Source: an uncultured Candidatus Saccharibacteria bacterium
GTDB lineage: Bacteria > Patescibacteriota > Minisyncoccia > Phycocordibacterales > Phycocordibacteraceae
Length of the DNA stretch: 64,000 nucleotides
NCBI GenBank assembly: GCA_964652615.1
Contig: CAZZAT010000001.1
Span: 87,081 to 151,080, forward strand
Direction of reading: 5' to 3'
Shown here: one piece after another, positions 52,132 to 61,721 of the stretch
Layout: every line of letters begins with the position of its first letter
Numbering within the stretch: the first letter of the stretch is position 1
Notes under the pieces: generated by a model
What the model saw: the letters and a program-made list of their open reading frames with translations, nothing else
Told to the model about the DNA's origin: nothing
Databases searched by the model: none
Position numbers and translations under genes: made by a program

Positions 52132-52830
52132 ATGCGCATCAATAAATACCTCGCTCTGAAAGGCTACGCTACGAGGCGGGGCGCCGACGAATACATCGAA
52201 AAGAAGAAGGTCTTCATCAATGGCAGAGTAGCGAAGCTTGGCGACAAGGTCGCGGAGCATGATGTGGTTGAAGTGAGGGGCGGAGCTAAAGAAGCAGCGA
52301 AGCGCGTATACATCGCATACCACAAGCCCCGCGGCGTCGTCACGCATTCCCCAAGCGAGGGCGAAGACGATATTGGCGCGCTTCTTGCAGGGGCGCCAGA
52401 GCTTGCAGGACTCTTCCCTGTCGGACGCCTTGATAAAGATTCGAGCGGCCTCATTATTTTGACGAACGACGGTCGCATAATTGAGCGGCTACTGCATCCG
52501 CGTTTTGAGCACGAGAAAGAGTACGTCGTCACTACTGCGCGCCCACTGCGTGCGAGCTTCAAAGAATATATGGAGCCCGGCGTTGATATTGAAGGATATC
52601 GAACAAAGCCTGTGAAGGTGGAAGTGCGAGGCGCAAGCCGCTTCGCTATTATCCTTACCGAGGGCAAAAAGCATCAGGTGCGCCGCATGGTGGTCGCCAT
52701 GCACAATGAAGTGAAGACGCTCACCCGCACTCGCATTATGAATATCCGCCTCGGGAGCCTTCCTGAAGGATCCTACCGCCCTATCGAAGGAGCAGAGCTT
52801 GCAGCCTTCTTAAAGGCTCTCGGCCTTTAA
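52132..52830 (+). CDS. Pseudouridine synthase, RsuA/RluB family (S4 domain + catalytic domain)
   Basis: S4 domain (MRINKYLALKGYATRRGADEYIEKKKVFINGRV) and the catalytic GRLDKDSSGLIILTNDG motif; start moved to MRINKYL. Confidence 0.8.
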   Translation: MRINKYLALKGYATRRGADEYIEKKKVFINGRVAKLGDKVAEHDVVEVRGGAKEAAKRVYIAYHKPRGVVTHSPSEGEDDIGALLAGAPELAGLFPVGRLDKDSSGLIILTNDGRIIERLLHPRFEHEKEYVVTTARPLRASFKEYMEPGVDIEGYRTKPVKVEVRGASRFAIILTEGKKHQVRRMVVAMHNEVKTLTRTRIMNIRLGSLPEGSYRPIEGAELAAFLKALGL

Positions 52831-52918
52831 ATAAAGGACATTTGATCGAATTTGTGTATCTGTTGGGGATTTCCGGTTTCCTAATTAAAGCTATACTTAA
52901 ATAATAGTCTTAGGCGCT

Positions 52919-54013
52919 ATGGGAAATCAAAAACTACAGAAAATCGTCTCTTCTACTCTTTTTGATAGAAGAAAATCAAATAAAAGCGGTTCTTTCACTA
53001 TGATTGATCTGTTCGCAGGAATAGGAGGGATTCGTCTTGGTTTTGAAAGTATTGGGGGTGAATGTGTCTTCACTTCTGAATGGGACGAATCTGCAAAAAA
53101 AACATACCAAGCAAACTTCTCGGAGATACCCTACGGAGATATCACTCAGATAGCTCCAGAAGATATTCCATCTTTCGATATACTTCTTGCAGGCTTTCCA
53201 TGTCAGCCCTTCTCTCAAGCGGGAAGAAAACTCGGACTTGCAGATACACGTGGAACGCTATTCTTTGATATTGCCAAAATTGTTGAACACCATAAGCCAA
53301 AAGTAGTATTTCTTGAAAATGTAAAAAGGTTCAAGAGTCATGATGGAGGTAGGACTTTCAAAACTATTACTTCCATTCTTGAGGATTTTGGATACGAGAT
53401 ACATGCCAAAGTGCTCAATGCGAAAGATTTTGGAGTTCCTCAAAATAGAGAAAGAATCTATATCATAGGATTCCTTGGTAAAACGAATTTCTCTTTCCCA
53501 AAACCGTCCGGTAAGCAAACGTTATTGGGAGATATCTTGGAACAGAAACCCGATGATAAGTATACGATTTCTGATACTCTCTGGGCCGGACACCAAAGAA
53601 GGAAAAAGGAACATTTGGAGAAAGGAAACGGATTCGGATACTCCCTCTTCGATAAGAAATCCCCCTATACAAGTACGATTTCTGCACGATACTACAAAGA
53701 CGGCTCTGAAATCCTTATAAAGCAAAAAAAGGGAAACCCCAGAAAACTTACTCCTCGTGAAGCTGCCCGCCTCCAAGGTTTCCCAGATTCCTTTATTGTC
53801 TCAACAAGCGATACACAAGCATACAAACAATTCGGGAATAGTGTTGCCGTACCTGTTATAAAAGCACTCGCTAAAGAAATCAAAAAAGCTTTACTGGACA
53901 TGGAGGTCGCTTCTGGTAAGGCACAATCTATCAACTTAGACAAACTACGAGAAACGAGCGTACAGGAAGCGAGAAAGAGTATCCCTTCTCGATTAGTAGG
54001 AGTCAGTCACTAA
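52919..54013 (+). CDS. DNA (cytosine-5)-methyltransferase (type II modification enzyme)
   Basis: Motif I DLFAGIGG, motif IV GFPCQPFS, motif VI ENV and motif VIII QFGNSVAVP; low-GC coding region. Confidence 0.9.
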   Translation: MGNQKLQKIVSSTLFDRRKSNKSGSFTMIDLFAGIGGIRLGFESIGGECVFTSEWDESAKKTYQANFSEIPYGDITQIAPEDIPSFDILLAGFPCQPFSQAGRKLGLADTRGTLFFDIAKIVEHHKPKVVFLENVKRFKSHDGGRTFKTITSILEDFGYEIHAKVLNAKDFGVPQNRERIYIIGFLGKTNFSFPKPSGKQTLLGDILEQKPDDKYTISDTLWAGHQRRKKEHLEKGNGFGYSLFDKKSPYTSTISARYYKDGSEILIKQKKGNPRKLTPREAARLQGFPDSFIVSTSDTQAYKQFGNSVAVPVIKALAKEIKKALLDMEVASGKAQSINLDKLRETSVQEARKSIPSRLVGVSH

Positions 54014-54781
54014 AGAATCCCAATACTTATTATCTGCACGCCAATTAGCATACGGACGTGCGTTCCCATCATACATACCACTATCGAAAAAGATGATGCC
54101 TTTTCGAACGCCGTCAATCCATGTATTGAACGTAATGGGATTACCAAAAACTATCTTTGTGTAAACTCCATTCGCATCTTTTTGACATTTAAACCAACCT
54201 AGTTTGTTAAATTTGTCCTCAACGCGCTTTTTCATCATCTCTGCCTCCCAGACAGCAAGTATGAGGTTATCCTTCTGGAGTGGTCGTGGTACGATTTTTT
54301 GTTTATTTGGACGTTGATCTTTAGAATATGAATAGACAGCATAGATAGTTCCTTGTGCATCAACTTTCAGTTTTTGACCAAAAGAATTCCACTTATTAAT
54401 TTTTGGCGCCGGTTTCCCTGACCAAGAGTATCTATTTTCTTTTGATGAATTCGGAGCTCCGAAAATCATCAAGAATTTCTTTCGGTCGAGATTGTATTCA
54501 TTTCCTTTTCTATAGATCCGCAATTTTGCACTCGGAGACCAATCACCGAAAGTGGTTTTGCTTGTGGTGTTGTTTTTCATCTCAAATCCATCAAGATCTG
54601 GCGCGTTCCTGCCGTTATGTTTTATTCCCATTTGTTTTTCAAGCCAATGACCACCCTTGCCATCATGAGATACATGGGCCTCTGATGTATCAGGGACTTT
54701 GCCTTTCACTTTCTGAATGAAAAGCTTAACTATTCTCCGCTTAATCTGCGCAGAGGTCTCTTTCTTGATGGACTTTGCCAT
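53993..54781 (-). CDS. Putative type II restriction endonuclease partnering the m5C methyltransferase
   Basis: Convergent and 3'-overlapping (21 nt) with the methyltransferase gene; Lys/Asp/Glu-rich 262-aa protein with no other assignable function; low GC. The ORF-track start at 54799 is a TTG; ATG at 54781 (MAKSIKK) is preferred. Any resemblance to ScrFI/LlaMI-type enzymes is from memory only. Confidence 0.5.
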   Translation of the reverse strand: MAKSIKKETSAQIKRRIVKLFIQKVKGKVPDTSEAHVSHDGKGGHWLEKQMGIKHNGRNAPDLDGFEMKNNTTSKTTFGDWSPSAKLRIYRKGNEYNLDRKKFLMIFGAPNSSKENRYSWSGKPAPKINKWNSFGQKLKVDAQGTIYAVYSYSKDQRPNKQKIVPRPLQKDNLILAVWEAEMMKKRVEDKFNKLGWFKCQKDANGVYTKIVFGNPITFNTWIDGVRKGIIFFDSGMYDGNARPYANWRADNKYWDSLVTDSY

Positions 54782-54838
54782 ATACGGCGATGGTAGCAAA
54801 TATCTAAGAAATCGCCCATGGGAGCGATTTCTTAGATA

Positions 54839-55066
54839 CTATTTCTTCCAGTCGCGTATCGTAATCGTTTTAGTCTTCTCGTTTACGTCGAGCTTGAGCT
54901 TCTGGCGTTCCTTCCACTTGAAAGACTTTATAACTGCGCGCGGGAGCGTAATCGCATAGCTTGCGCCCCCGGATACTTTGGTGAGGGAGCGTATGTCGCT
55001 ATTTACTTCAGCACGGCGTCCGGATGCGGGCCGCTTTGCTTTTTTCTTGGTGGTTTTCTTTTTCAT
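54839..55066 (-). CDS. AbrB/MazE/SpoVT-fold (looped-hinge helix) DNA-binding protein, possible controller of the restriction-modification operon
   Basis: C-terminal SGGASYAITLPRAVIKSFKWKERQKLKLDVNEKTKTITI matches the swapped-hairpin AbrB/MazE domain; basic KKK-rich N-terminus; directly upstream of and co-oriented with the restriction endonuclease gene; start moved to the internal Met. Confidence 0.45.
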   Translation of the reverse strand: MKKKTTKKKAKRPASGRRAEVNSDIRSLTKVSGGASYAITLPRAVIKSFKWKERQKLKLDVNEKTKTITIRDWKK

Positions 55067-55177
55067 GCGTATAGCATAGCACTTGAAAATATGTATATTC
55101 GATGAAATAGCGCGCAGCAATTGCGCAAGATGCAAAACGGGCCCGGCTTTCGCCGGACCCGAATAGAAAAGAACGTT

Positions 55178-57633: not shown

Positions 57634-58047
57634 CTAGTGCTTCTTCATCTTATGGTCAAGCGACCACTTCCCTGCACCGGTAATCATAAGCGAAACCGAA
57701 GCGGCAAGGATAAGTAGGATGAATTCGGAACCGCCCCATCCTTGCTTCAAGTGAACAGCAAGGAATGCAACGAGCGCAACGAAAGCGAGAATCTTCGCTA
57801 CCCAGTGCGTCCACGCGCCAAGGATAAGAAGGATACCGCCGCCAAGTTCTGCTGCGATAAGAAGCACCGCAAACACTTCAGGAGCTGGGAAACCAAGGCT
57901 ACCAAGAAAGCCTGCAACACCTGGCACGCCGCCTACAAACTTCTGCCATCCGTGTGCAACGAAGATGGCACCGAGAATAACGCGGAGAAACAGCGGTGCA
58001 AACGCCTGCCATTTCTCGCCACACTTACAGGTAAGGAATTTCATCAT
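57634..58047 (-). CDS. DoxX family membrane protein
   Basis: FLRVILGAIFVAHGWQKF... with four TM helices. Confidence 0.78.
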   Translation of the reverse strand: MMKFLTCKCGEKWQAFAPLFLRVILGAIFVAHGWQKFVGGVPGVAGFLGSLGFPAPEVFAVLLIAAELGGGILLILGAWTHWVAKILAFVALVAFLAVHLKQGWGGSEFILLILAASVSLMITGAGKWSLDHKMKKH

Positions 58048-58085
58048 GATGAAAGTAATTAATTAATCTGTCCCTCTATTGTACC

Positions 58086-58520
58086 CTACGCGCCGGGCTT
58101 CCTGATACTTGGAATGCGCGGGATAAGCGCTCCCATAACTCCTGCAATTGCAGCGATAGCGTAGAAGCCAAAGCCGATAGTCATGCCTACCGCAGCGGCA
58201 TACCAGAGTGAAGCAGCGGTCGTAAGGTTGTGTACGTTATGTCCGTCTTTGAGGATAAGACCGGCGCCAAGAAAACCAATGCCCGTTACTACTTGTGCGG
58301 CAATGCGTGAAGTTGATTCAGGATCAACACTAGCCGAAAGGAAGGTGAAGAGCATTGAGCCTGCGATAACAAGAATATGTGTCGAGATACCAGCATCTTT
58401 ACCTCGGTTCTCGCGCTCGGCACCCATAAGAAAGCCGATAATAACCGCAAGTACAAACCCTATAAGAAACTGACTTTCAATTGGTCCGATGAGTGCATCC
58501 ATATGTGTAGATGGTAGCAC
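58086..58520 (-). CDS. MgtC/SapB family membrane protein
   Basis: GFLMGAERENRGKDAGISTHILVIAGSMLF... MgtC signature. Confidence 0.72.
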   Translation of the reverse strand: MLPSTHMDALIGPIESQFLIGFVLAVIIGFLMGAERENRGKDAGISTHILVIAGSMLFTFLSASVDPESTSRIAAQVVTGIGFLGAGLILKDGHNVHNLTTAASLWYAAAVGMTIGFGFYAIAAIAGVMGALIPRIPSIRKPGA

Positions 58521-58724
58521 GCGAACTATAGTCCAAGCTCAATAGTCGTTTCTGAAGGCGCTTCTTCCGCTGCTTGTTGTTTCTCGTAATACACGTAGTA
58601 GTTCAACGCAAAGAAACCAAGAATGAGACACAGCCCGATAAGTACGAGAATGATGATGTTTTTGGTCATAGCGTGAGTATAACAAGAACGCACCGATTCC
58701 TCGGTGCGTTCTGTGTCTAGCGCA

Positions 58725-58982
58725 CTATGGCGTTACAGGTGGCGTTGGATCAATTGGCACATCCATCGTTGCAGGAAGCGCATCATCAGCCTCGTCTATA
58801 AGAAGCACGCCTGACGTGGCCGCAATTGAGGGCGCTGTCATGATAGCGGTCTGCGCGTCTGGAGCAATAGTTGTCATGATGTCTCCAGTATAGGAAACAT
58901 ACTGATAGGTTGCTGCAAATGCCATACTTGGAAGTACGGCTGCAGCACTAAAAGCAGTAATAACAGTCAAAAGAATCTTCAT
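58725..58982 (-). CDS. Small secreted hypothetical protein (85 aa after signal-peptide start)
   Basis: Signal peptide MKILLTVITAFSAAAVLPSMAFA followed by a Pro/Thr/Ala-rich tail. Confidence 0.4.
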   Translation of the reverse strand: MKILLTVITAFSAAAVLPSMAFAATYQYVSYTGDIMTTIAPDAQTAIMTAPSIAATSGVLLIDEADDALPATMDVPIDPTPPVTP

Positions 58983-59139
58983 AGGTGTGTTACAAGCATT
59001 ACGGCTGGTAATACTTCTAGTACACACGAAAAGTGATGAGATTTTGATTAACATGTGTCTGCTACCAGAGTTGGATACGTTTAGAACAGTTGACTGGAGA
59101 GGACTTGCTCTAGAAGCAATTTCTTGCCCTAACGCACCC

Positions 59140-59709
59140 CTAACTCCTTACTACATCGAGGAGTTCAGGGAACTCACTCGTTCCCATATCCCCCTGGGTA
59201 TAGTGTCCGTGGTTTGGCAGATCTATTACTTCCCCACCTAGCGCCTCATGAAATACACGAAGACTCTCTTTCCCGTCCTCTTCTTCGTCGTTCGATGTAA
59301 ACATTACAATCTCTCCCACACGCTCTGAAATTCCTTTGTCTATTTCATATCCGTAGTATCCCTCACGCAACTGGTCTCCAATGCCAGGAATCTTCCAAGG
59401 AGCGACAAGAACGAGCTTGGCAACCTTTTGTTTTGTATCGCCCAACCAACGAACAAGAAAAGCTGCTCCGCAACTATGTCCTATGAGGATGTCATTTTCT
59501 CCGATAGGATTCTTCTCAAATTCTACTTTAAACGCTTGGTAGTCTGGATACCAAGGATTTGGCATGAGAGGCGTATTTACCTCTATTCCTTCCTTTTGGA
59601 ATTCTCCTTTGAGCCACGGAATCCAGTGTTTATCGTAAGTGCGAGTTTCTGAATTCATCGCTTTCTCAACATCAGAAGGACAACCGTGAAGAACGTGTAT
59701 CGTTCTCAT
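59140..59709 (-). CDS. Alpha/beta-fold serine hydrolase, RBBP9/YdeN family
   Basis: ILIGHSCGAAF (GxSxG nucleophile elbow) and LPNHGHY catalytic His region; ~190 aa as for this family. Confidence 0.68.
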   Translation of the reverse strand: MRTIHVLHGCPSDVEKAMNSETRTYDKHWIPWLKGEFQKEGIEVNTPLMPNPWYPDYQAFKVEFEKNPIGENDILIGHSCGAAFLVRWLGDTKQKVAKLVLVAPWKIPGIGDQLREGYYGYEIDKGISERVGEIVMFTSNDEEEDGKESLRVFHEALGGEVIDLPNHGHYTQGDMGTSEFPELLDVVRS

Positions 59710-60023
59710 ATGACTTCAATCGGGTATACGTCCGTTGCTGGTTCCTCGTATGGATGTGCTTCTCTTATTGCCTTAAGCACATCTTGCAGTTTGTTTTCCT
59801 CACAGACTGTCTCAATGCGATCTTCTGAAACCTCTTCGAGTTTCCCTACAGAACCAATGGTTGGATTTGCTCCTTTTTCAGGCTTGAAACGACCAGTTCC
59901 TTTCAGGGTAAAAGTGCAGTGGGAATAGTTTCCGATCTTTCCTGCGCCAGCATTACCTATGACTTCACGGATTTTGTCCGCATCGTTTTCCGGAACATAG
60001 ACTACGACTTTGTACCTTTTCAT
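59706..60023 (-). CDS. Small NIF3-like (C-terminal domain) / YqfO-like protein
   Basis: KVVVYVPENDADKIREVIGNAGAGKIGNYSHCTF...GSVGKLEEVSEDRIETVCEE...AHPYEEPATDVYPIE pattern. Confidence 0.45.
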   Translation of the reverse strand: MKRYKVVVYVPENDADKIREVIGNAGAGKIGNYSHCTFTLKGTGRFKPEKGANPTIGSVGKLEEVSEDRIETVCEENKLQDVLKAIREAHPYEEPATDVYPIEVI

Positions 60024-60025
60024 AC

Positions 60026-60457
60026 TTATGACTGGGGTGGAATGCCGCGACGCTCTAGATCCTCTTTAGTTTCAAATTCAAGGTAGTTTTGTGTTAGTTC
60101 TTCTCCTTTTTTTATATCTCGGCTAGCAACTAAATAGGCGTCAGTATGTTCTGGGTCCTGAGTAACGGAACCTTCATACGCGTGATTAATGAAGTGGGTC
60201 ACGTCAAAATCTACGTGCCATTTCTGACTAGGCTCATCAAAGAACCCCCACCAAAGAATTTCTTGCTTCTCCTTTTCGTCCAATGAATCAAATTCTTCTT
60301 GGGTGATATTCACATCAAGAAGTGGGCTAGGAGTATAGATTAGTTGACCCTTCTCGATATCTTGATCAGCGAAAAGACCAACACCATGATACGGCGAGGT
60401 ATTTAGTTTGTACTTGATGTGAATCATGGTGAAAGTATACCAATGTTCTGAATTCAA
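60026..60457 (-). CDS. SET-domain protein (putative lysine methyltransferase)
   Basis: GVGLFADQDIEKGQLIY and HFINHAYEGSV...AYLVASRDIKKGEELTQNY match the SET N- and C-terminal signature regions (NHxC-like and ELxxxY). Confidence 0.58.
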   Translation of the reverse strand: MNSEHWYTFTMIHIKYKLNTSPYHGVGLFADQDIEKGQLIYTPSPLLDVNITQEEFDSLDEKEKQEILWWGFFDEPSQKWHVDFDVTHFINHAYEGSVTQDPEHTDAYLVASRDIKKGEELTQNYLEFETKEDLERRGIPPQS

Positions 60458-60600
60458 ATGGCCTTCGGTTTTTTAAGCCAAGAAATACGCGGTCAAAAAC
60501 GTGCTGGACAGTCCGAGCCAGAACTAATTCAAGTCTTGTAAAACATAGTCCGTTTGGTGGCTAGATTCTGATACGCTCGACGCTCTTAGGACAAGCAGAA

Positions 60601-61353
60601 TTAGACCTGCGGACGCTTCCGACATTCCCCTTCTACATAGTCGATTAAAGACTCGGTTCCTTTGAGTAGTTTCATAAAATCAACTTCGAACAAGCGAGCA
60701 TATACGGAATTCTCTCCACGACTTGCTCCGTATGAGCGGTCGCGAGTAATGTGAACTAACTCGTCACGCAACTTCTTTAGCTCGACATAGTCCTGCCAGA
60801 ATGACTGCGAAGCTGGAGAGGTGAAAGCATAGTGGCCAGGAAGGACGCTCTTTAGTTTTTCGTCTAATGACAGGAAGAGGACTTGCTCTATCGAAAGCAC
60901 CACATCCCTTTTAACTTGGAGTCGCATTCCCCACAACTTCAATACAGTTACATCTTTTCGCACTACATAGTGTAGGTCTTTGGCGAGCTCGATATGCAGA
61001 TTAGCGATAAACTCGATGGTCGCGTGGAGCAGGATAATTGCGATGCTTCCCGTCTCAAAAAAATCTAGTGCACTGTCCTTATCTCCAAAAGCATCACCGA
61101 CAGTAGGGTCTTTCGAGTTCATTGGACGGCGACTCGCCTGTGCGGCGGCTTTCTTCTTTAGACATTCGTCAATGAGTGCTTCAGCGCGATTAAGGTACAT
61201 CCCGTCGACCTTTGGCGCATAGAACCATGTGGCGATGCCAGTATCTTTTTCGGTAAATTTATCTATGAAAGCAATCGGTGCACCGACAGCGTGCTCAAAG
61301 CGTCCAATTTTCGCTGGCTTTGCTAACGTTGTCTCAACAGTTCTCGGTCTCAT
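60601..61353 (-). CDS. Hypothetical protein with a HEPN-like Rx4H motif
   Basis: 250 aa; C-terminal KKLRDELVHITRDRS fits the HEPN Rx4-6H RNase motif; otherwise unassigned. Confidence 0.45.
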   Translation of the reverse strand: MRPRTVETTLAKPAKIGRFEHAVGAPIAFIDKFTEKDTGIATWFYAPKVDGMYLNRAEALIDECLKKKAAAQASRRPMNSKDPTVGDAFGDKDSALDFFETGSIAIILLHATIEFIANLHIELAKDLHYVVRKDVTVLKLWGMRLQVKRDVVLSIEQVLFLSLDEKLKSVLPGHYAFTSPASQSFWQDYVELKKLRDELVHITRDRSYGASRGENSVYARLFEVDFMKLLKGTESLIDYVEGECRKRPQV

Positions 61354-61358
61354 TCAAA

Positions 61359-61721
61359 TCAGCCTTTTATTTTCTTAACAATCCACTTCCATACCGGACG
61401 CCAGTTACCGCGAATATCATCGGCGATCTTCCTGCTTTCGTTTATCGCCCAGGCAGCAGCTATACCGAATGTGGAGAGGGCCAGAGCGGCAGCGTACGGA
61501 TTGCCGATCATTTCCACGAACTTCTCTGTACCCATAATCCCCTGTACCGATACGAGAAGGATAAGGCCAAAAAAGACGCTCTGGCCAAAGTATTCGAAAT
61601 CCCCTGGGCGTCCGAGCTTCGCGAAGTGACGATAGGACCACGCAAAGACAAACCCTGGCAGAACAAACAGGAAGAGATGGAATAGGTCTATCGGGGCCTC
61701 AGGCATGTCGTAATGGTACAC
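61359..61721 (-). CDS. Hypothetical three-TM membrane protein (120 aa)
   Basis: Three hydrophobic helices and a basic C-terminus; immediately downstream of the 250-aa protein (6-nt gap). Confidence 0.45.
   Translation of the reverse strand: MYHYDMPEAPIDLFHLFLFVLPGFVFAWSYRHFAKLGRPGDFEYFGQSVFFGLILLVSVQGIMGTEKFVEMIGNPYAAALALSTFGIAAAWAINESRKIADDIRGNWRPVWKWIVKKIKG

What the first reader, a model, noticed from the sequence alone, without database searches (positions are those of the whole stretch)
52919..55066. Low-GC type II restriction-modification module with an AbrB/MazE-fold putative controller
A Dcm-type C5-cytosine methyltransferase (motifs I, IV, VI and VIII clear) and a 262-aa Lys-rich protein converge and overlap by 21 nt. 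This is the classic layout of a methyltransferase with its restriction endonuclease. The whole 2 kb is markedly more AT-rich than its flanks, implying horizontal acquisition.

Directly upstream of and co-oriented with the endonuclease is a 75-aa protein with a swapped-hairpin AbrB/MazE/SpoVT DNA-binding domain and a poly-Lys N-terminus. This is not the usual HTH C-protein, so it may be a non-canonical controller of endonuclease expression, or an orphan antitoxin.
Basis: partly seen in the sequence, partly recalled or inferred. Interest (0 to 1): 0.55.

Follow-up and report, generated by a model that had tools for sequence, protein, structure and literature searches.

The report
CCNGG restriction-modification cassette beside resident AbrB gene
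This is an ordinary, self-contained restriction-modification gene pair (probably cutting CCNGG) that landed in a recurrent insertion hotspot of a tiny CPR bacterium's genome; the small AbrB-like gene next to it belongs to the host, not to the cassette.

Summary
A C5-cytosine methyltransferase (52919-54013, +) and a LlaMI-family endonuclease (53993-54781, -) converge and overlap by 21 nt. They lie in a segment of about 40% GC between flanks of about 55% GC. A 75-aa AbrB/MazE-fold protein (S, 54839-55066, -) lies just upstream of the endonuclease gene.

The methyltransferase carries the published CCNGG target-recognition signature. The endonuclease keeps an invariant PD-x4-ExK motif.

The controller idea is not supported. 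S is absent from all 10 homologous restriction-modification loci, which keep the same endonuclease promoter without it. Three of them carry a large serine recombinase next to the methyltransferase gene. S has host-like GC3 (0.62, against 0.34-0.39 for the cassette). It sits at the same syntenic position in relatives that have no restriction-modification genes or a different system. It has its own promoter, and a 38-bp hairpin separates it from the endonuclease gene.

One new point emerged. Across about 70 loci, DNA methyltransferase genes are strongly enriched just downstream of S homologues (21/211 against 1/184 upstream). S therefore marks a hotspot for foreign and defence genes in these bacteria.

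The parts
52831..52918 (+). Right edge of the low-GC island and the M promoter region. Candidate -10 elements are TATACT (52892-52897) and AATAAT (52900-52905). The second aligns with TATAAT-AGTCCTA upstream of M in L001 and L002.
   Evidence: GC 0.34. Sequence. Comparison of M upstream regions. The rluB-like gene stop codon is at 52830.
52919..54013 (+). C5-cytosine DNA methyltransferase, 364 aa. The CCNGG-type target-recognition signature GNGF-x13-TI-x3-YYK is at aa 236-260. There is no N-terminal HTH domain.
   Evidence: PF00145 E=1.5e-112 and TIGR00675 E=3.9e-107. PADLOC MTase_II E=1.7e-132. Motifs and TRD signature. The signature is taken from PMC3346939.
53993..54781 (-). LlaMI-family type II restriction endonuclease, 262 aa. 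The catalytic motif is P61-D62-x4-E67-M68-K69.
   Evidence: PF09562 E=4.1e-57, PF15515 E=2.4e-14. PADLOC REase_II E=7.3e-75. Weak direct alignment to BcnI 2odh over the motif. P61, D62, E67, M68 and K69 are invariant in 30 homologues. There are 658 relatives with E<=1e-10, and NCBI names them 'LlaMI family restriction endonuclease'.
53993..54013 (.). 21-nt tail-to-tail overlap of the M and R coding regions.
   Evidence: ORF coordinates. A similar overlap of 4-21 nt is seen in close homologues L002, L096, L097 and L098.
54782..54800 (-). R promoter. Extended -10 TG (54798-54797) and TACCAT (54795-54790), 8 nt before the ATG, which implies a leaderless or very short-leader mRNA.
   Evidence: The motif TTTTGnTAnCAT lies 7-10 nt before the ATG in the cassettes without S: L001, L002, L003 and L096-L099.
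54801..54838 (-). 38-bp perfect palindrome (15-bp arms TATCTAAGAAATCGC, 8-bp spacer). It starts right after the S stop codon and ends 1 nt before the R extended -10. It is probably the terminator or insulator of the S transcript. A role as an operator is not excluded.
   Evidence: (z=-7.5). It is unique in the window. It is absent from cassettes without S.
54839..55066 (-). S: a resident 75-aa AbrB/MazE-fold DNA-binding protein with a Lys-rich N-terminal tail. It is not part of the cassette.
   Evidence: PF04014. Model and fold matches. GC3 0.618, equal to the backbone. Orthologues of 75-88% identity lie in the same synteny without this R-M.
55067..55081 (-). S promoter. Extended -10 TG (55081-55080) and TATGCT (55078-55073), 6 nt before the ATG (leaderless). 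It is conserved as TGGTATGCT in orthologues.
55138..55161 (-). Intrinsic terminator of the upstream TPM-domain gene. It marks S as a separate transcription unit.
   Evidence: A similar terminator lies upstream of S in L012.

Best explanation
The segment 52831-54838 is a self-contained type IIP restriction-modification cassette of the ScrFI/LlaMI kind. Three parts of the explanation follow.

**How the enzymes work.**
- The methyltransferase most likely makes 5-methylcytosine in CCNGG.
- The endonuclease belongs to the LlaMI family, which is distantly related to the monomeric BcnI and MvaI enzymes and has a single PD-ExK active site. It most likely cuts unmethylated CCNGG.

**How the cassette is expressed.**
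- Each gene has its own promoter, and both promoters travel with the cassette.
- There is no C protein, and the methyltransferase has no N-terminal HTH repressor domain.
- Any balance between the two genes must therefore come from promoter strength, the (near-)leaderless endonuclease mRNA, and convergent transcription across the 21-nt overlap. This last step is inferred.

**Where the cassette sits.**
- It was acquired horizontally. The same pair circulates among CPR/Patescibacteria genomes, sometimes next to a large serine recombinase.
- It lies in the gap between two convergent host genes: the small AbrB-fold gene S and an rluB-like pseudouridine synthase gene.
- S is a resident, highly conserved host gene with its own leaderless promoter. 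The 38-bp hairpin after its stop codon most likely ends its transcript and shields the endonuclease gene from read-through.
- The DNA just downstream of S orthologues is a recurrent landing site for foreign genes, many of them restriction-modification systems. This explains the adjacency without a regulatory link.
For: **Shown: identity of the enzymes.**
- Family matches.
- The CCNGG target-recognition signature G(K/N)GFx13T(I/L)x3YYK at aa 236-260 (signature from PMC3346939).
- An invariant PD-x4-ExK motif in 30 homologues, aligned to BcnI.
- CCNGG is at 0.61 of expectation in the window, and there are no sites in the island.

**Shown: the cassette is autonomous and mobile.**
- The convergent R/M pair occurs in 10 other loci from Nomurabacteria, Saccharibacteria, Peribacteria and Paceibacterota, in unrelated surroundings.
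- The R promoter motif is conserved in them.
- A large serine recombinase lies next to M in L096, L097 and L099.

**Shown: S is resident.**
- S is absent from all 10 loci.
- GC3 is 0.618 for S, against 0.337 for M and 0.388 for R; the backbone is 0.60-0.71.
- S orthologues sit in the same MgtC-DoxX/LemA-TPM ... rluB-TspO synteny. The slot between S and rluB/TspO holds DUF1993 (L008, L012), an Eco47II-type R-M (L014), or an HTH gene, a REase-like gene and a GIY-YIG gene (L010).
- S is 75-88% identical between these genomes, while the flanking proteins are 48-80% identical.

**Shown: the hotspot is general.**
- In 24 loci where upstream and downstream GC3 differ by at least 0.08, S matches the upstream side in 21.
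- DNA methyltransferase homologues occur at positions +1 to +4 in 21 of 211 genes (19 of about 66 loci), against 1 of 184 at positions -4 to -1; Fisher p=2e-5.
- Types I, II, IIG and III, and GmrSD, are all represented.

**Shown: S is insulated.**
- A TPM terminator lies upstream, S has its own extended -10, and a strong hairpin lies downstream.
- Orthologues L009, L012 and L014 also have strong hairpins after S, with different sequences.
Against: - No activity, methylation or transcript data exist, so specificity and promoters are predictions.
- The hairpin is followed by only three T's, so termination efficiency is uncertain. A 15-8-15 palindrome touching the R promoter could equally be a protein-binding site.
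- R follows S directly and in the same orientation here, and an unrelated endonuclease does the same in L014. In about a quarter of S loci the next gene lies within 30 nt with no hairpin, so in those loci S and the cargo are probably co-transcribed.
- CCNGG avoidance is weak evidence, because GATC is equally depleted (0.55).
- No recombinase or target-site duplication was found in the window, so the insertion mechanism here is unknown.
Confidence: 0.7

Rival explanations
1. S is a non-canonical, AbrB-fold controller of this restriction-modification system. S would bind the 38-bp palindrome that abuts the R promoter and set the level or timing of endonuclease expression.
For: - S is a DNA-binding fold. 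It lies directly upstream of R in the same orientation.
- A perfect palindrome lies exactly between the two genes and touches the R extended -10.
- Cassettes lacking S have no such large palindrome.
- An unrelated endonuclease also follows S directly in L014.
Against: - S is absent from 10 of 10 homologous cassettes, which keep the same R promoter.
- S has host composition and host synteny.
- The palindrome does not recur upstream of S or M, and the three control regions share no motif of 8 nt or more.
- A resident protein cannot provide the delay after transfer that defines C proteins.
- S matches no PADLOC control-protein model.
Confidence: 0.08
2. S is a host-encoded, autoregulated promoter-and-repressor platform. 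Whatever foreign cargo lands downstream is expressed from, or gated by, the S promoter. The S family would then be a general resident regulator of a variable defence slot.
For: - Most distant S homologues have large perfect palindromes (arms of 10-23 bp) over their own promoters and nowhere else in the locus.
- 57 of 73 first-downstream genes are co-oriented with S, and 19 lie within 30 nt, sometimes overlapping the S stop codon, mostly without a hairpin.
- The cargo is low in GC3, while S resembles the backbone.
- There is a strong downstream-only enrichment of restriction-modification genes.
Against: - In the window and its closest orthologues, S is followed by a strong hairpin and lacks an obvious palindromic operator.
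- The cargo also includes housekeeping-type genes: APS kinase, adenylate kinase, VTC, phosphoglycerate kinase and a trypsin-like peptidase.
- Co-orientation may only reflect the general strand bias of these genomes.
- Some of the palindromes look like intrinsic terminators of the upstream gene, for example in L034.
Confidence: 0.15
3. S is an orphan or degenerate MazE/AbrB-type antitoxin, left over from a toxin-antitoxin pair that often sits in defence islands.
For: - The best Pfam family is MazE_antitoxin, and the best structural matches are MazE and VapB.
- Some sources annotate homologues as MazEF or PrlF antitoxins.
- Toxin-antitoxin genes (Gp49/HigB-like, Zeta-like, DarT-NADAR) occur near some S homologues.
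Against: - The protein ends right after the beta-barrel domain, with no toxin-binding C-terminal tail.
- No conserved partner gene exists. First-downstream genes are almost all singletons across 73 loci.
- S is more conserved than its housekeeping neighbours and keeps its syntenic position, which is unlike mobile toxin-antitoxin modules.
Confidence: 0.07

Closest known systems
ScrFI / LlaMI restriction-modification systems of Lactococcus lactis (CCNGG), and the pP62BP1 systems of Psychrobacter
   Same: The endonuclease is in the LlaMI Pfam family. The C5 methyltransferase has the CCNGG target-recognition signature G(K/N)GFx13T(I/L)x3YYK.
   Different: - M.ScrFI and the pP62BP1 methyltransferases carry an N-terminal HTH_XRE domain used for autoregulation (PMC3346939). 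This methyltransferase has only about 25 residues before motif I and no HTH.
- The genes here are convergent with overlapping 3' ends.
- The hosts are CPR bacteria.
BcnI / MvaI monomeric restriction endonucleases (CCSGG / CCWGG)
   Same: There is a secondary Pfam match to MvaI_BcnI, and the PD-x4-ExK motif aligns to BcnI residues 55-62. Those enzymes are monomers with one active site that nick the two strands in turn (PMC3089477, PMC1874612).
   Different: The direct sequence match is very weak (E=0.44). The oligomeric state and central-base preference of the LlaMI family were not tested here. The partner methyltransferase is m5C-type with a CCNGG signature, whereas M.MvaI makes N4-methylcytosine (PMC3001055 abstract).
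C (controller) protein-dependent type II systems (PvuII, BamHI, AhdI, Esp1396I, Csp231I)
   Same: A small DNA-binding protein gene lies directly upstream of the endonuclease gene in the same orientation. The layout is convergent C-R / M, as in Esp1396I (PMC2691842 abstract).
   Different: C proteins are HTH proteins that travel with their cassette and act on C-boxes at their own promoter (PMC12707154). S has an AbrB fold, is resident in the host, is missing from homologous cassettes, and has no recognisable operator shared with R or M.
E. coli immigration control region (hotspot 36), which also holds the AbrB-fold gene symE
   Same: It is a chromosomal slot between conserved flanks whose content is replaced by different restriction systems (PMC12707154). 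An AbrB-fold gene is co-located with restriction-modification genes in genomic hotspots (Kawano et al. 2007, PMC1891008).
   Different: S does not match the SymE Pfam family; only PF04014 was reported at E<=0.1. S is about 60-75 aa and conserved as a flank. SymE is described as a mobile, multi-copy toxin-like gene under SOS and antisense control.
Sso7c4 and related archaeal AbrB-fold 'histone-like' proteins
   Same: These are small (about 50-60 aa), stand-alone, basic proteins with a single AbrB domain. They are among the top structural matches (5itm, 5itj, 2l66).
   Different: They share no detectable sequence relationship with S, since a PDB sequence search found nothing. Whether S binds DNA non-specifically is untested. 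Many S homologues have promoter palindromes, which suggests sequence-specific autoregulation.

Membership tests
Type IIP restriction-modification system, ScrFI/LlaMI (CCNGG) kind | Adjacent genes for a DNA methyltransferase and a restriction endonuclease | tested here: met
   M at 52919-54013 (+) and R at 53993-54781 (-). Both score far above the Pfam cut-offs. The pair is conserved in 10 other loci.
Type IIP restriction-modification system, ScrFI/LlaMI (CCNGG) kind | C5-methyltransferase catalytic motifs I, IV, VI, VIII and X | tested here: met
   FAGIGG, PCQPFS, ENV, QNRER and GNSV were found in the expected order.
Type IIP restriction-modification system, ScrFI/LlaMI (CCNGG) kind | Target-recognition signature of CCNGG methyltransferases, G(K/N)GFx13T(I/L)x3YYK | tested here: met
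   GNGFGYSLFDKKSPYTSTISARYYK at aa 236-260. The signature is as published in PMC3346939. It is also present in homologues L002, L097 and L098, but was not matched exactly in L096 and L099.
Type IIP restriction-modification system, ScrFI/LlaMI (CCNGG) kind | Endonuclease belongs to the LlaMI family and has an intact PD-(D/E)XK active site | tested here: met
   PF09562 at 194 bits against a cut-off of 25. P61, D62, E67 and K69 are invariant in 30 homologues.
Type IIP restriction-modification system, ScrFI/LlaMI (CCNGG) kind | Demonstrated cleavage of CCNGG and protection by m5C methylation | not testable with these tools
   The only indirect hints are CCNGG at 0.61 of expectation in the window and no sites in the 2-kb island.
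C-protein-controlled restriction-modification system | The regulator is a helix-turn-helix (Xre-like) C protein | tested here: not met
   S matches only PF04014 and has an AbrB-like fold. It does not match the PADLOC Control_protein models, whereas the HTH protein of L010 does.
C-protein-controlled restriction-modification system | The regulator gene is part of the mobile cassette and is conserved with homologous R/M pairs | tested here: not met
   No S homologue was found in 10 homologous loci (tblastn E<=1). S has backbone GC3 and sits at the same site without this R-M in L008, L009, L010, L012 and L014.
C-protein-controlled restriction-modification system | Operator (C-box) at the regulator's own promoter, with regulator and endonuclease co-transcribed | tested here: inconclusive
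   No inverted repeat of 7 bp or more lies upstream of S in the window. A strong hairpin separates S from R, and R has its own conserved promoter. There are no transcript data.
Type II toxin-antitoxin system (MazE/AbrB-type antitoxin) | N-terminal AbrB/MazE swapped-hairpin DNA-binding domain | tested here: met
   PF04014 just above its cut-off. The model and PDB fold matches agree.
Type II toxin-antitoxin system (MazE/AbrB-type antitoxin) | Adjacent cognate toxin gene and a C-terminal toxin-binding extension | tested here: not met
   S ends 3 residues after the last strand. Its neighbours are a TPM-domain gene and R. Downstream genes across 73 loci are unrelated to each other.
Chromosomal hotspot / defence island between conserved flanking genes | Conserved flanks with different cargo in related genomes | tested here: met
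   S and rluB/TspO flank DUF1993, a LlaMI-type R-M, an Eco47II-type R-M, or an HTH/REase-like/GIY-YIG set.
Chromosomal hotspot / defence island between conserved flanking genes | Cargo is compositionally foreign and enriched in defence genes | tested here: met
   GC3 test: 21 against 3. DNA methyltransferases: 21/211 downstream against 1/184 upstream, p=2e-5. Type I, II, IIG and III systems, GmrSD and toxin genes were found.
Chromosomal hotspot / defence island between conserved flanking genes | Identified insertion mechanism (integrase, att site or target duplication) | tested here: not met
   There is no recombinase homologue in the window. No repeat is shared by the two island edges. The sequence after the S stop codon differs between orthologues.
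SymE family (AbrB-fold toxin-like protein) | Match to the SymE_toxin Pfam family | tested here: not met
   The Pfam scan at E<=0.1 returned only PF04014 for S.

The most novel reading that the evidence does not exclude
The S family would be a resident AbrB-fold regulator that anchors and gates a dedicated landing pad for foreign defence genes in Paceibacteria/CPR genomes.
- Its autoregulated, leaderless promoter would drive or limit expression of whichever restriction-modification or other cargo inserts after its stop codon.
- The lineage-specific palindromes would be its operators.
- In the window, the 38-bp palindrome abutting the endonuclease promoter would be a site where S, or its transcript's terminator, tunes endonuclease expression.
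- This would be a host-side functional analogue of C proteins built on a different fold.
Probability: 0.15. Interest if true: 0.65.

Novelty: new member of a known kind. Interest (0 to 1): 0.3.

Why it matters
The restriction-modification pair is a routine addition to the ScrFI/LlaMI CCNGG group. It does show that such cassettes circulate widely in CPR bacteria without a C protein or a methyltransferase HTH domain. The more useful result is comparative. A small, highly conserved AbrB-fold gene marks the upstream edge of a slot that holds low-GC foreign DNA in many related genomes, and about 30% of loci carry a DNA methyltransferase there. This gives a simple anchor for finding defence islands in these genomes, which are uncultured and have few CRISPR systems. 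It also raises a testable question: does the anchor protein regulate what lands beside it?

Tried and rejected
- **Shared operator.** I looked for a sequence shared between the S, R and M upstream regions. Nothing of 8 nt or more was found. The GCGCAATTGC palindrome upstream of S occurs at chance frequency in the window.
- **Repeat or attachment site.** I tested whether the hairpin arm is a repeated element or att site. The only other matches in the window have 3 mismatches, at chance level. The other island edge has no copy.
- **Origin of the hairpin.** I tried to assign the hairpin to the cassette or to S by aligning R upstream regions. Clear homology starts at the extended -10. Alignment of the hairpin's R-proximal arm to the cassette's TCGCTTTAT element is ambiguous.
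- **PDB sequence search for S.** No hits.
- **PADLOC for S.** No hits.
- **Naming the source organism.** The cluster look-up gave no names or accessions. The CPR/Paceibacteria assignment rests on the names of homologues.
- **BcnI catalytic residue numbers.** These could not be confirmed in the paper consulted. The motif assignment therefore rests on the alignment and on invariance.
- **Site-specific recombination at the 15-8-15 palindrome.** I considered this and set it aside. There is no recombinase in the window, no second site, and no conserved sequence after S in orthologues.
- **Literature.** Searches found no report of an AbrB-type C protein.
Full report
**1. What is in the sequence**

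ORF listing and family scans confirm three genes.
- **M**, 52919-54013 (+), 364 aa, is a C5-cytosine DNA methyltransferase (PF00145 E=1.5e-112; TIGR00675 E=3.9e-107). Motifs I, IV, VI, VIII and X are in order.
- **R**, 53993-54781 (-), 262 aa, is a LlaMI-family restriction endonuclease (PF09562 E=4.1e-57). It has a secondary match to the MvaI/BcnI family (E=2.4e-14). PADLOC calls the two genes REase_II (7e-75) and MTase_II (2e-132).
- **S**, 54839-55066 (-), 75 aa, matches PF04014 (MazE/AbrB/SpoVT) just above its threshold.

The M and R coding regions overlap tail to tail by 21 nt.

An AlphaFold model of S built on 44 homologues has pLDDT 80.5. Residues 27-72 fold as beta-beta-alpha-beta-beta, behind a disordered Lys-rich tail. 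The best PDB fold matches are MazE, an archaeal AbrB-like 'histone-like' protein, Sso7c4, SpoVT, AbrB-N and VapB.

GC drops to 0.38-0.43 across 52800-54800, against 0.53-0.60 in the flanks.

**2. What the restriction-modification pair is**

- **Specificity of M.** M carries the string G(K/N)GF-x13-T(I/L)-x3-YYK at residues 236-260. Lasek et al. proposed this string as characteristic of CCNGG-specific C5 methyltransferases (PMC3346939). The same paper places LlaMI-family endonucleases with ScrFI as CCNGG enzymes.
- **Active site of R.** P61-D62-x4-E67-M68-K69 in R is invariant in 30 homologues of 55-74% identity. It aligns with the corresponding stretch of BcnI.
- **Likely mechanism.** BcnI and MvaI are monomers with one active site that nick the two strands in turn (PMC3089477, PMC1874612). 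That this enzyme works the same way is inferred, not shown.
- **Site avoidance.** CCNGG is at 0.61 of Markov expectation in the window and is absent from the island. GATC is just as depleted, so this is weak support.

Unlike M.ScrFI and its relatives, this M has no N-terminal HTH domain.

**3. The cassette is autonomous and mobile**

A genome scan and four context look-ups found the same convergent R/M pair in ten other loci. They come from Nomurabacteria, Saccharibacteria, Peribacteria, Paceibacterota and unnamed Patescibacteria, in unrelated neighbourhoods.
- **R promoter.** In these loci the sequence upstream of R keeps a common element, TCGCTTTAT...TTTTTGnTAnCAT, 7-10 nt before the ATG. 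This is an extended -10 promoter giving a leaderless or very short-leader mRNA. The window has TTTGCTACCAT at 54800-54790.
- **M promoter.** Upstream of M, a TATAAT-like element followed by AGTC(C/T)TA is shared with L001.
- **Recombinase.** In L096, L097 and L099 a large serine recombinase gene lies directly beside M. The window has none.
- **No controller.** None of the ten loci encodes a C protein or any S homologue (tblastn E<=1).

**4. S belongs to the host, not the cassette**

- **Composition.** GC3 of S is 0.618. This is like rluB (0.604), TPM (0.626) and LemA (0.709), and unlike M (0.337) and R (0.388).
- **Synteny.** S orthologues of 75-88% identity lie at the same place in related genomes, after MgtC-DoxX or LemA-TPM and before the rluB-like and TspO genes. 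The slot after S holds different things in different genomes:
  - DUF1993 in L008 and L012;
  - an Eco47II-type endonuclease with a MerR-fused C5 methyltransferase in L014;
  - an HTH gene, a REase-like gene and a GIY-YIG gene in L010/L011;
  - unknown genes in L009.
- **Conservation.** S is more conserved than the flanking housekeeping proteins, which are 48-80% identical.
- **Separate transcription unit.**
  - The TPM gene ends in a canonical terminator at 55161-55138.
  - S has a conserved TG-n-TATGCT element 6-7 nt before its ATG.
  - A hairpin follows the S stop codon here and in L009, L012 and L014, with a different sequence each time.
- **Edges of the slot.** The variable DNA begins at the S stop codon and ends at, or within about 90 nt of, the rluB stop codon. 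The slot is thus the gap between two convergent genes.

**5. The 38-bp palindrome**

- **Structure.** It lies at 54801-54838, has perfect 15-bp arms and an 8-bp spacer, and occurs once in the window. As RNA it is far more stable than shuffled controls (z=-7.5).
- **Position.** It fills the space from the S stop codon to 1 nt before the R extended -10.
- **Reading.** I take it to be the terminator or insulator of the S transcript. Only three T's follow it, and a palindrome at that position could also bind a protein. This point stays open.
- **Unexplained detail.** The 14-mer TAGTATCTAAGAAA, made of the S stop codon plus most of the left arm, recurs at the same position in L093. The S protein there is only 57% identical.

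**6. A family-level pattern**

A metagenome scan with the S alignment returned 80 further loci.
- **Methyltransferases.** After removing duplicates, DNA methyltransferase homologues occur in 21 of 211 genes at positions +1 to +4 downstream of S. That is 19 of about 66 loci. Upstream, at -4 to -1, the figure is 1 of 184 (Fisher p=2e-5).
- **Systems present.** Pfam scans show HsdM/HsdS, a Type III-like methyltransferase with a ResIII helicase, 800-1070-aa Type IIG enzymes, C5 and Dam-like methyltransferases, NgoPII- and Eco47II-family endonucleases, GmrSD/HNH, Gp49-, Zeta- and DarT-related genes, and Xre HTH proteins.
- **Composition.** In 24 loci where upstream and downstream GC3 differ by at least 0.08, S resembles the upstream side in 21. 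The downstream side is usually much lower in GC3.
- **Other cargo.** The slot also holds ordinary genes such as APS kinase, adenylate kinase, VTC, phosphoglycerate kinase and a peptidase.

S is therefore not a dedicated restriction-modification component. It is the conserved upstream flank of a variable region that often holds defence genes.

The closest described parallels are two.
- **E. coli immigration control region.** This is a hotspot with replaceable restriction systems that also contains the AbrB-fold gene symE (PMC12707154).
- **SymE co-location.** Kawano et al. noted that SymE genes co-locate with restriction-modification systems in hotspots (PMC1891008).

S does not match the SymE family.

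**7. What remains possible**

- **Palindromes at S promoters.** Most distant S homologues have long perfect palindromes over their own promoters and nowhere else in the locus. Examples are ATTACGTAATATATTACGTAAT, CTACTGAGATATCTCAGTAG and TCACCTGAGATATCTCAGGTGA. This suggests sequence-specific autoregulation with lineage-specific sites. Some of these palindromes may instead be terminators of the upstream gene.
- **Likely co-transcription.** In about a quarter of loci the next gene starts within 30 nt of the S stop codon, or overlaps it, mostly without a hairpin. Cargo there is probably co-transcribed with S.
- **Resulting hypothesis.** A host-side regulatory platform for incoming genes is conceivable. 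I rate it at about 0.15. The window's own subgroup lacks the palindromes and has the hairpin, which argues against such coupling at this locus.

**8. Verdict**

The finding is a real, well-described type II restriction-modification cassette, most likely CCNGG-specific, and a new member of a known kind. The proposed AbrB-fold controller is a resident neighbour rather than a component of the system. The S family is small: 417 representative clusters at E<=1e-3 among 1.84 billion. It consists of stand-alone proteins of 55-95 aa. Its recurring position at the edge of foreign DNA is the part worth following up.

Noticed in passing
L017-L095, within about 15-100 nt upstream of the S homologues: Long perfect palindromes or direct repeats sit over the presumed promoters of most distant S homologues. 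Half-sites vary by lineage (TTACGTAA, CTACTGAG, CACCTGAG, 3-5 tandem copies in L043 and L050). They occur only there within each locus. They look like autoregulatory operators, although some (L034 type, flanked by A and T runs) may be terminators.
   Followed up: partly
window 55073-55081 and 54790-54798; L001-L003, L008-L014, L096-L099: Both S and R have extended -10 elements (TGnTAnnnT) only 6-10 nt before the ATG, with no Shine-Dalgarno sequence. Their mRNAs are therefore probably leaderless. The pattern is conserved in orthologues.
   Followed up: partly
window 54828-54841 and L093:5157-5170: An identical 14-mer, TAGTATCTAAGAAA (S stop codon plus the start of the hairpin arm), occurs after S in a locus whose S protein is only 57% identical. 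This is unexplained. In L093 the conserved Trp codon of S reads TGA, which may mean a recoded genetic code or a truncated protein.
   Followed up: partly
L096:5426-6895, L097:5098-6447, L099:5411-6685: A large serine recombinase (Resolvase + Recombinase + Zn_ribbon) lies directly beside the methyltransferase gene of the closest R/M homologues. The pair probably rides on an integrative element there. No homologue is present in the window.
   Followed up: partly
L014:4322-6348: The same slot after S holds a different system in a related genome: an Eco47II-family endonuclease and a C5 methyltransferase fused to an N-terminal MerR-type HTH. Both are co-oriented with S, after a canonical terminator.
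   Followed up: partly
L010/L011/L016:4334-5572: The same slot holds an Xre-type HTH protein that matches PADLOC control-protein models, a 236-aa protein with a weak REase_II match, and a small GIY-YIG protein. No methyltransferase is present, so this may be a decayed or atypical system.
   Followed up: no
L005, about 100 nt upstream of M (around 1840-1900): A tRNA- or tmRNA-like 3' end (GGTTCAACTCCCGGCATCTCCACCA) lies next to the R/M pair. It is a classical integration target. L043 likewise has a tRNA-like 3' end just upstream of S.
   Followed up: no
window, whole 64 kb: GATC is at 0.55 of Markov expectation, as depleted as CCNGG. This hints at another restriction system, past or present, that targets GATC.
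   Followed up: no
window 58000-61400: A second stretch of lower GC (0.42-0.47) lies a few kb away from the island. Its genes were not examined.
   Followed up: no
window 54779-54841: The R start codon is in frame with S, since the intergenic distance is 57 nt (19 codons) after the TAG stop. This is probably chance.
   Followed up: no
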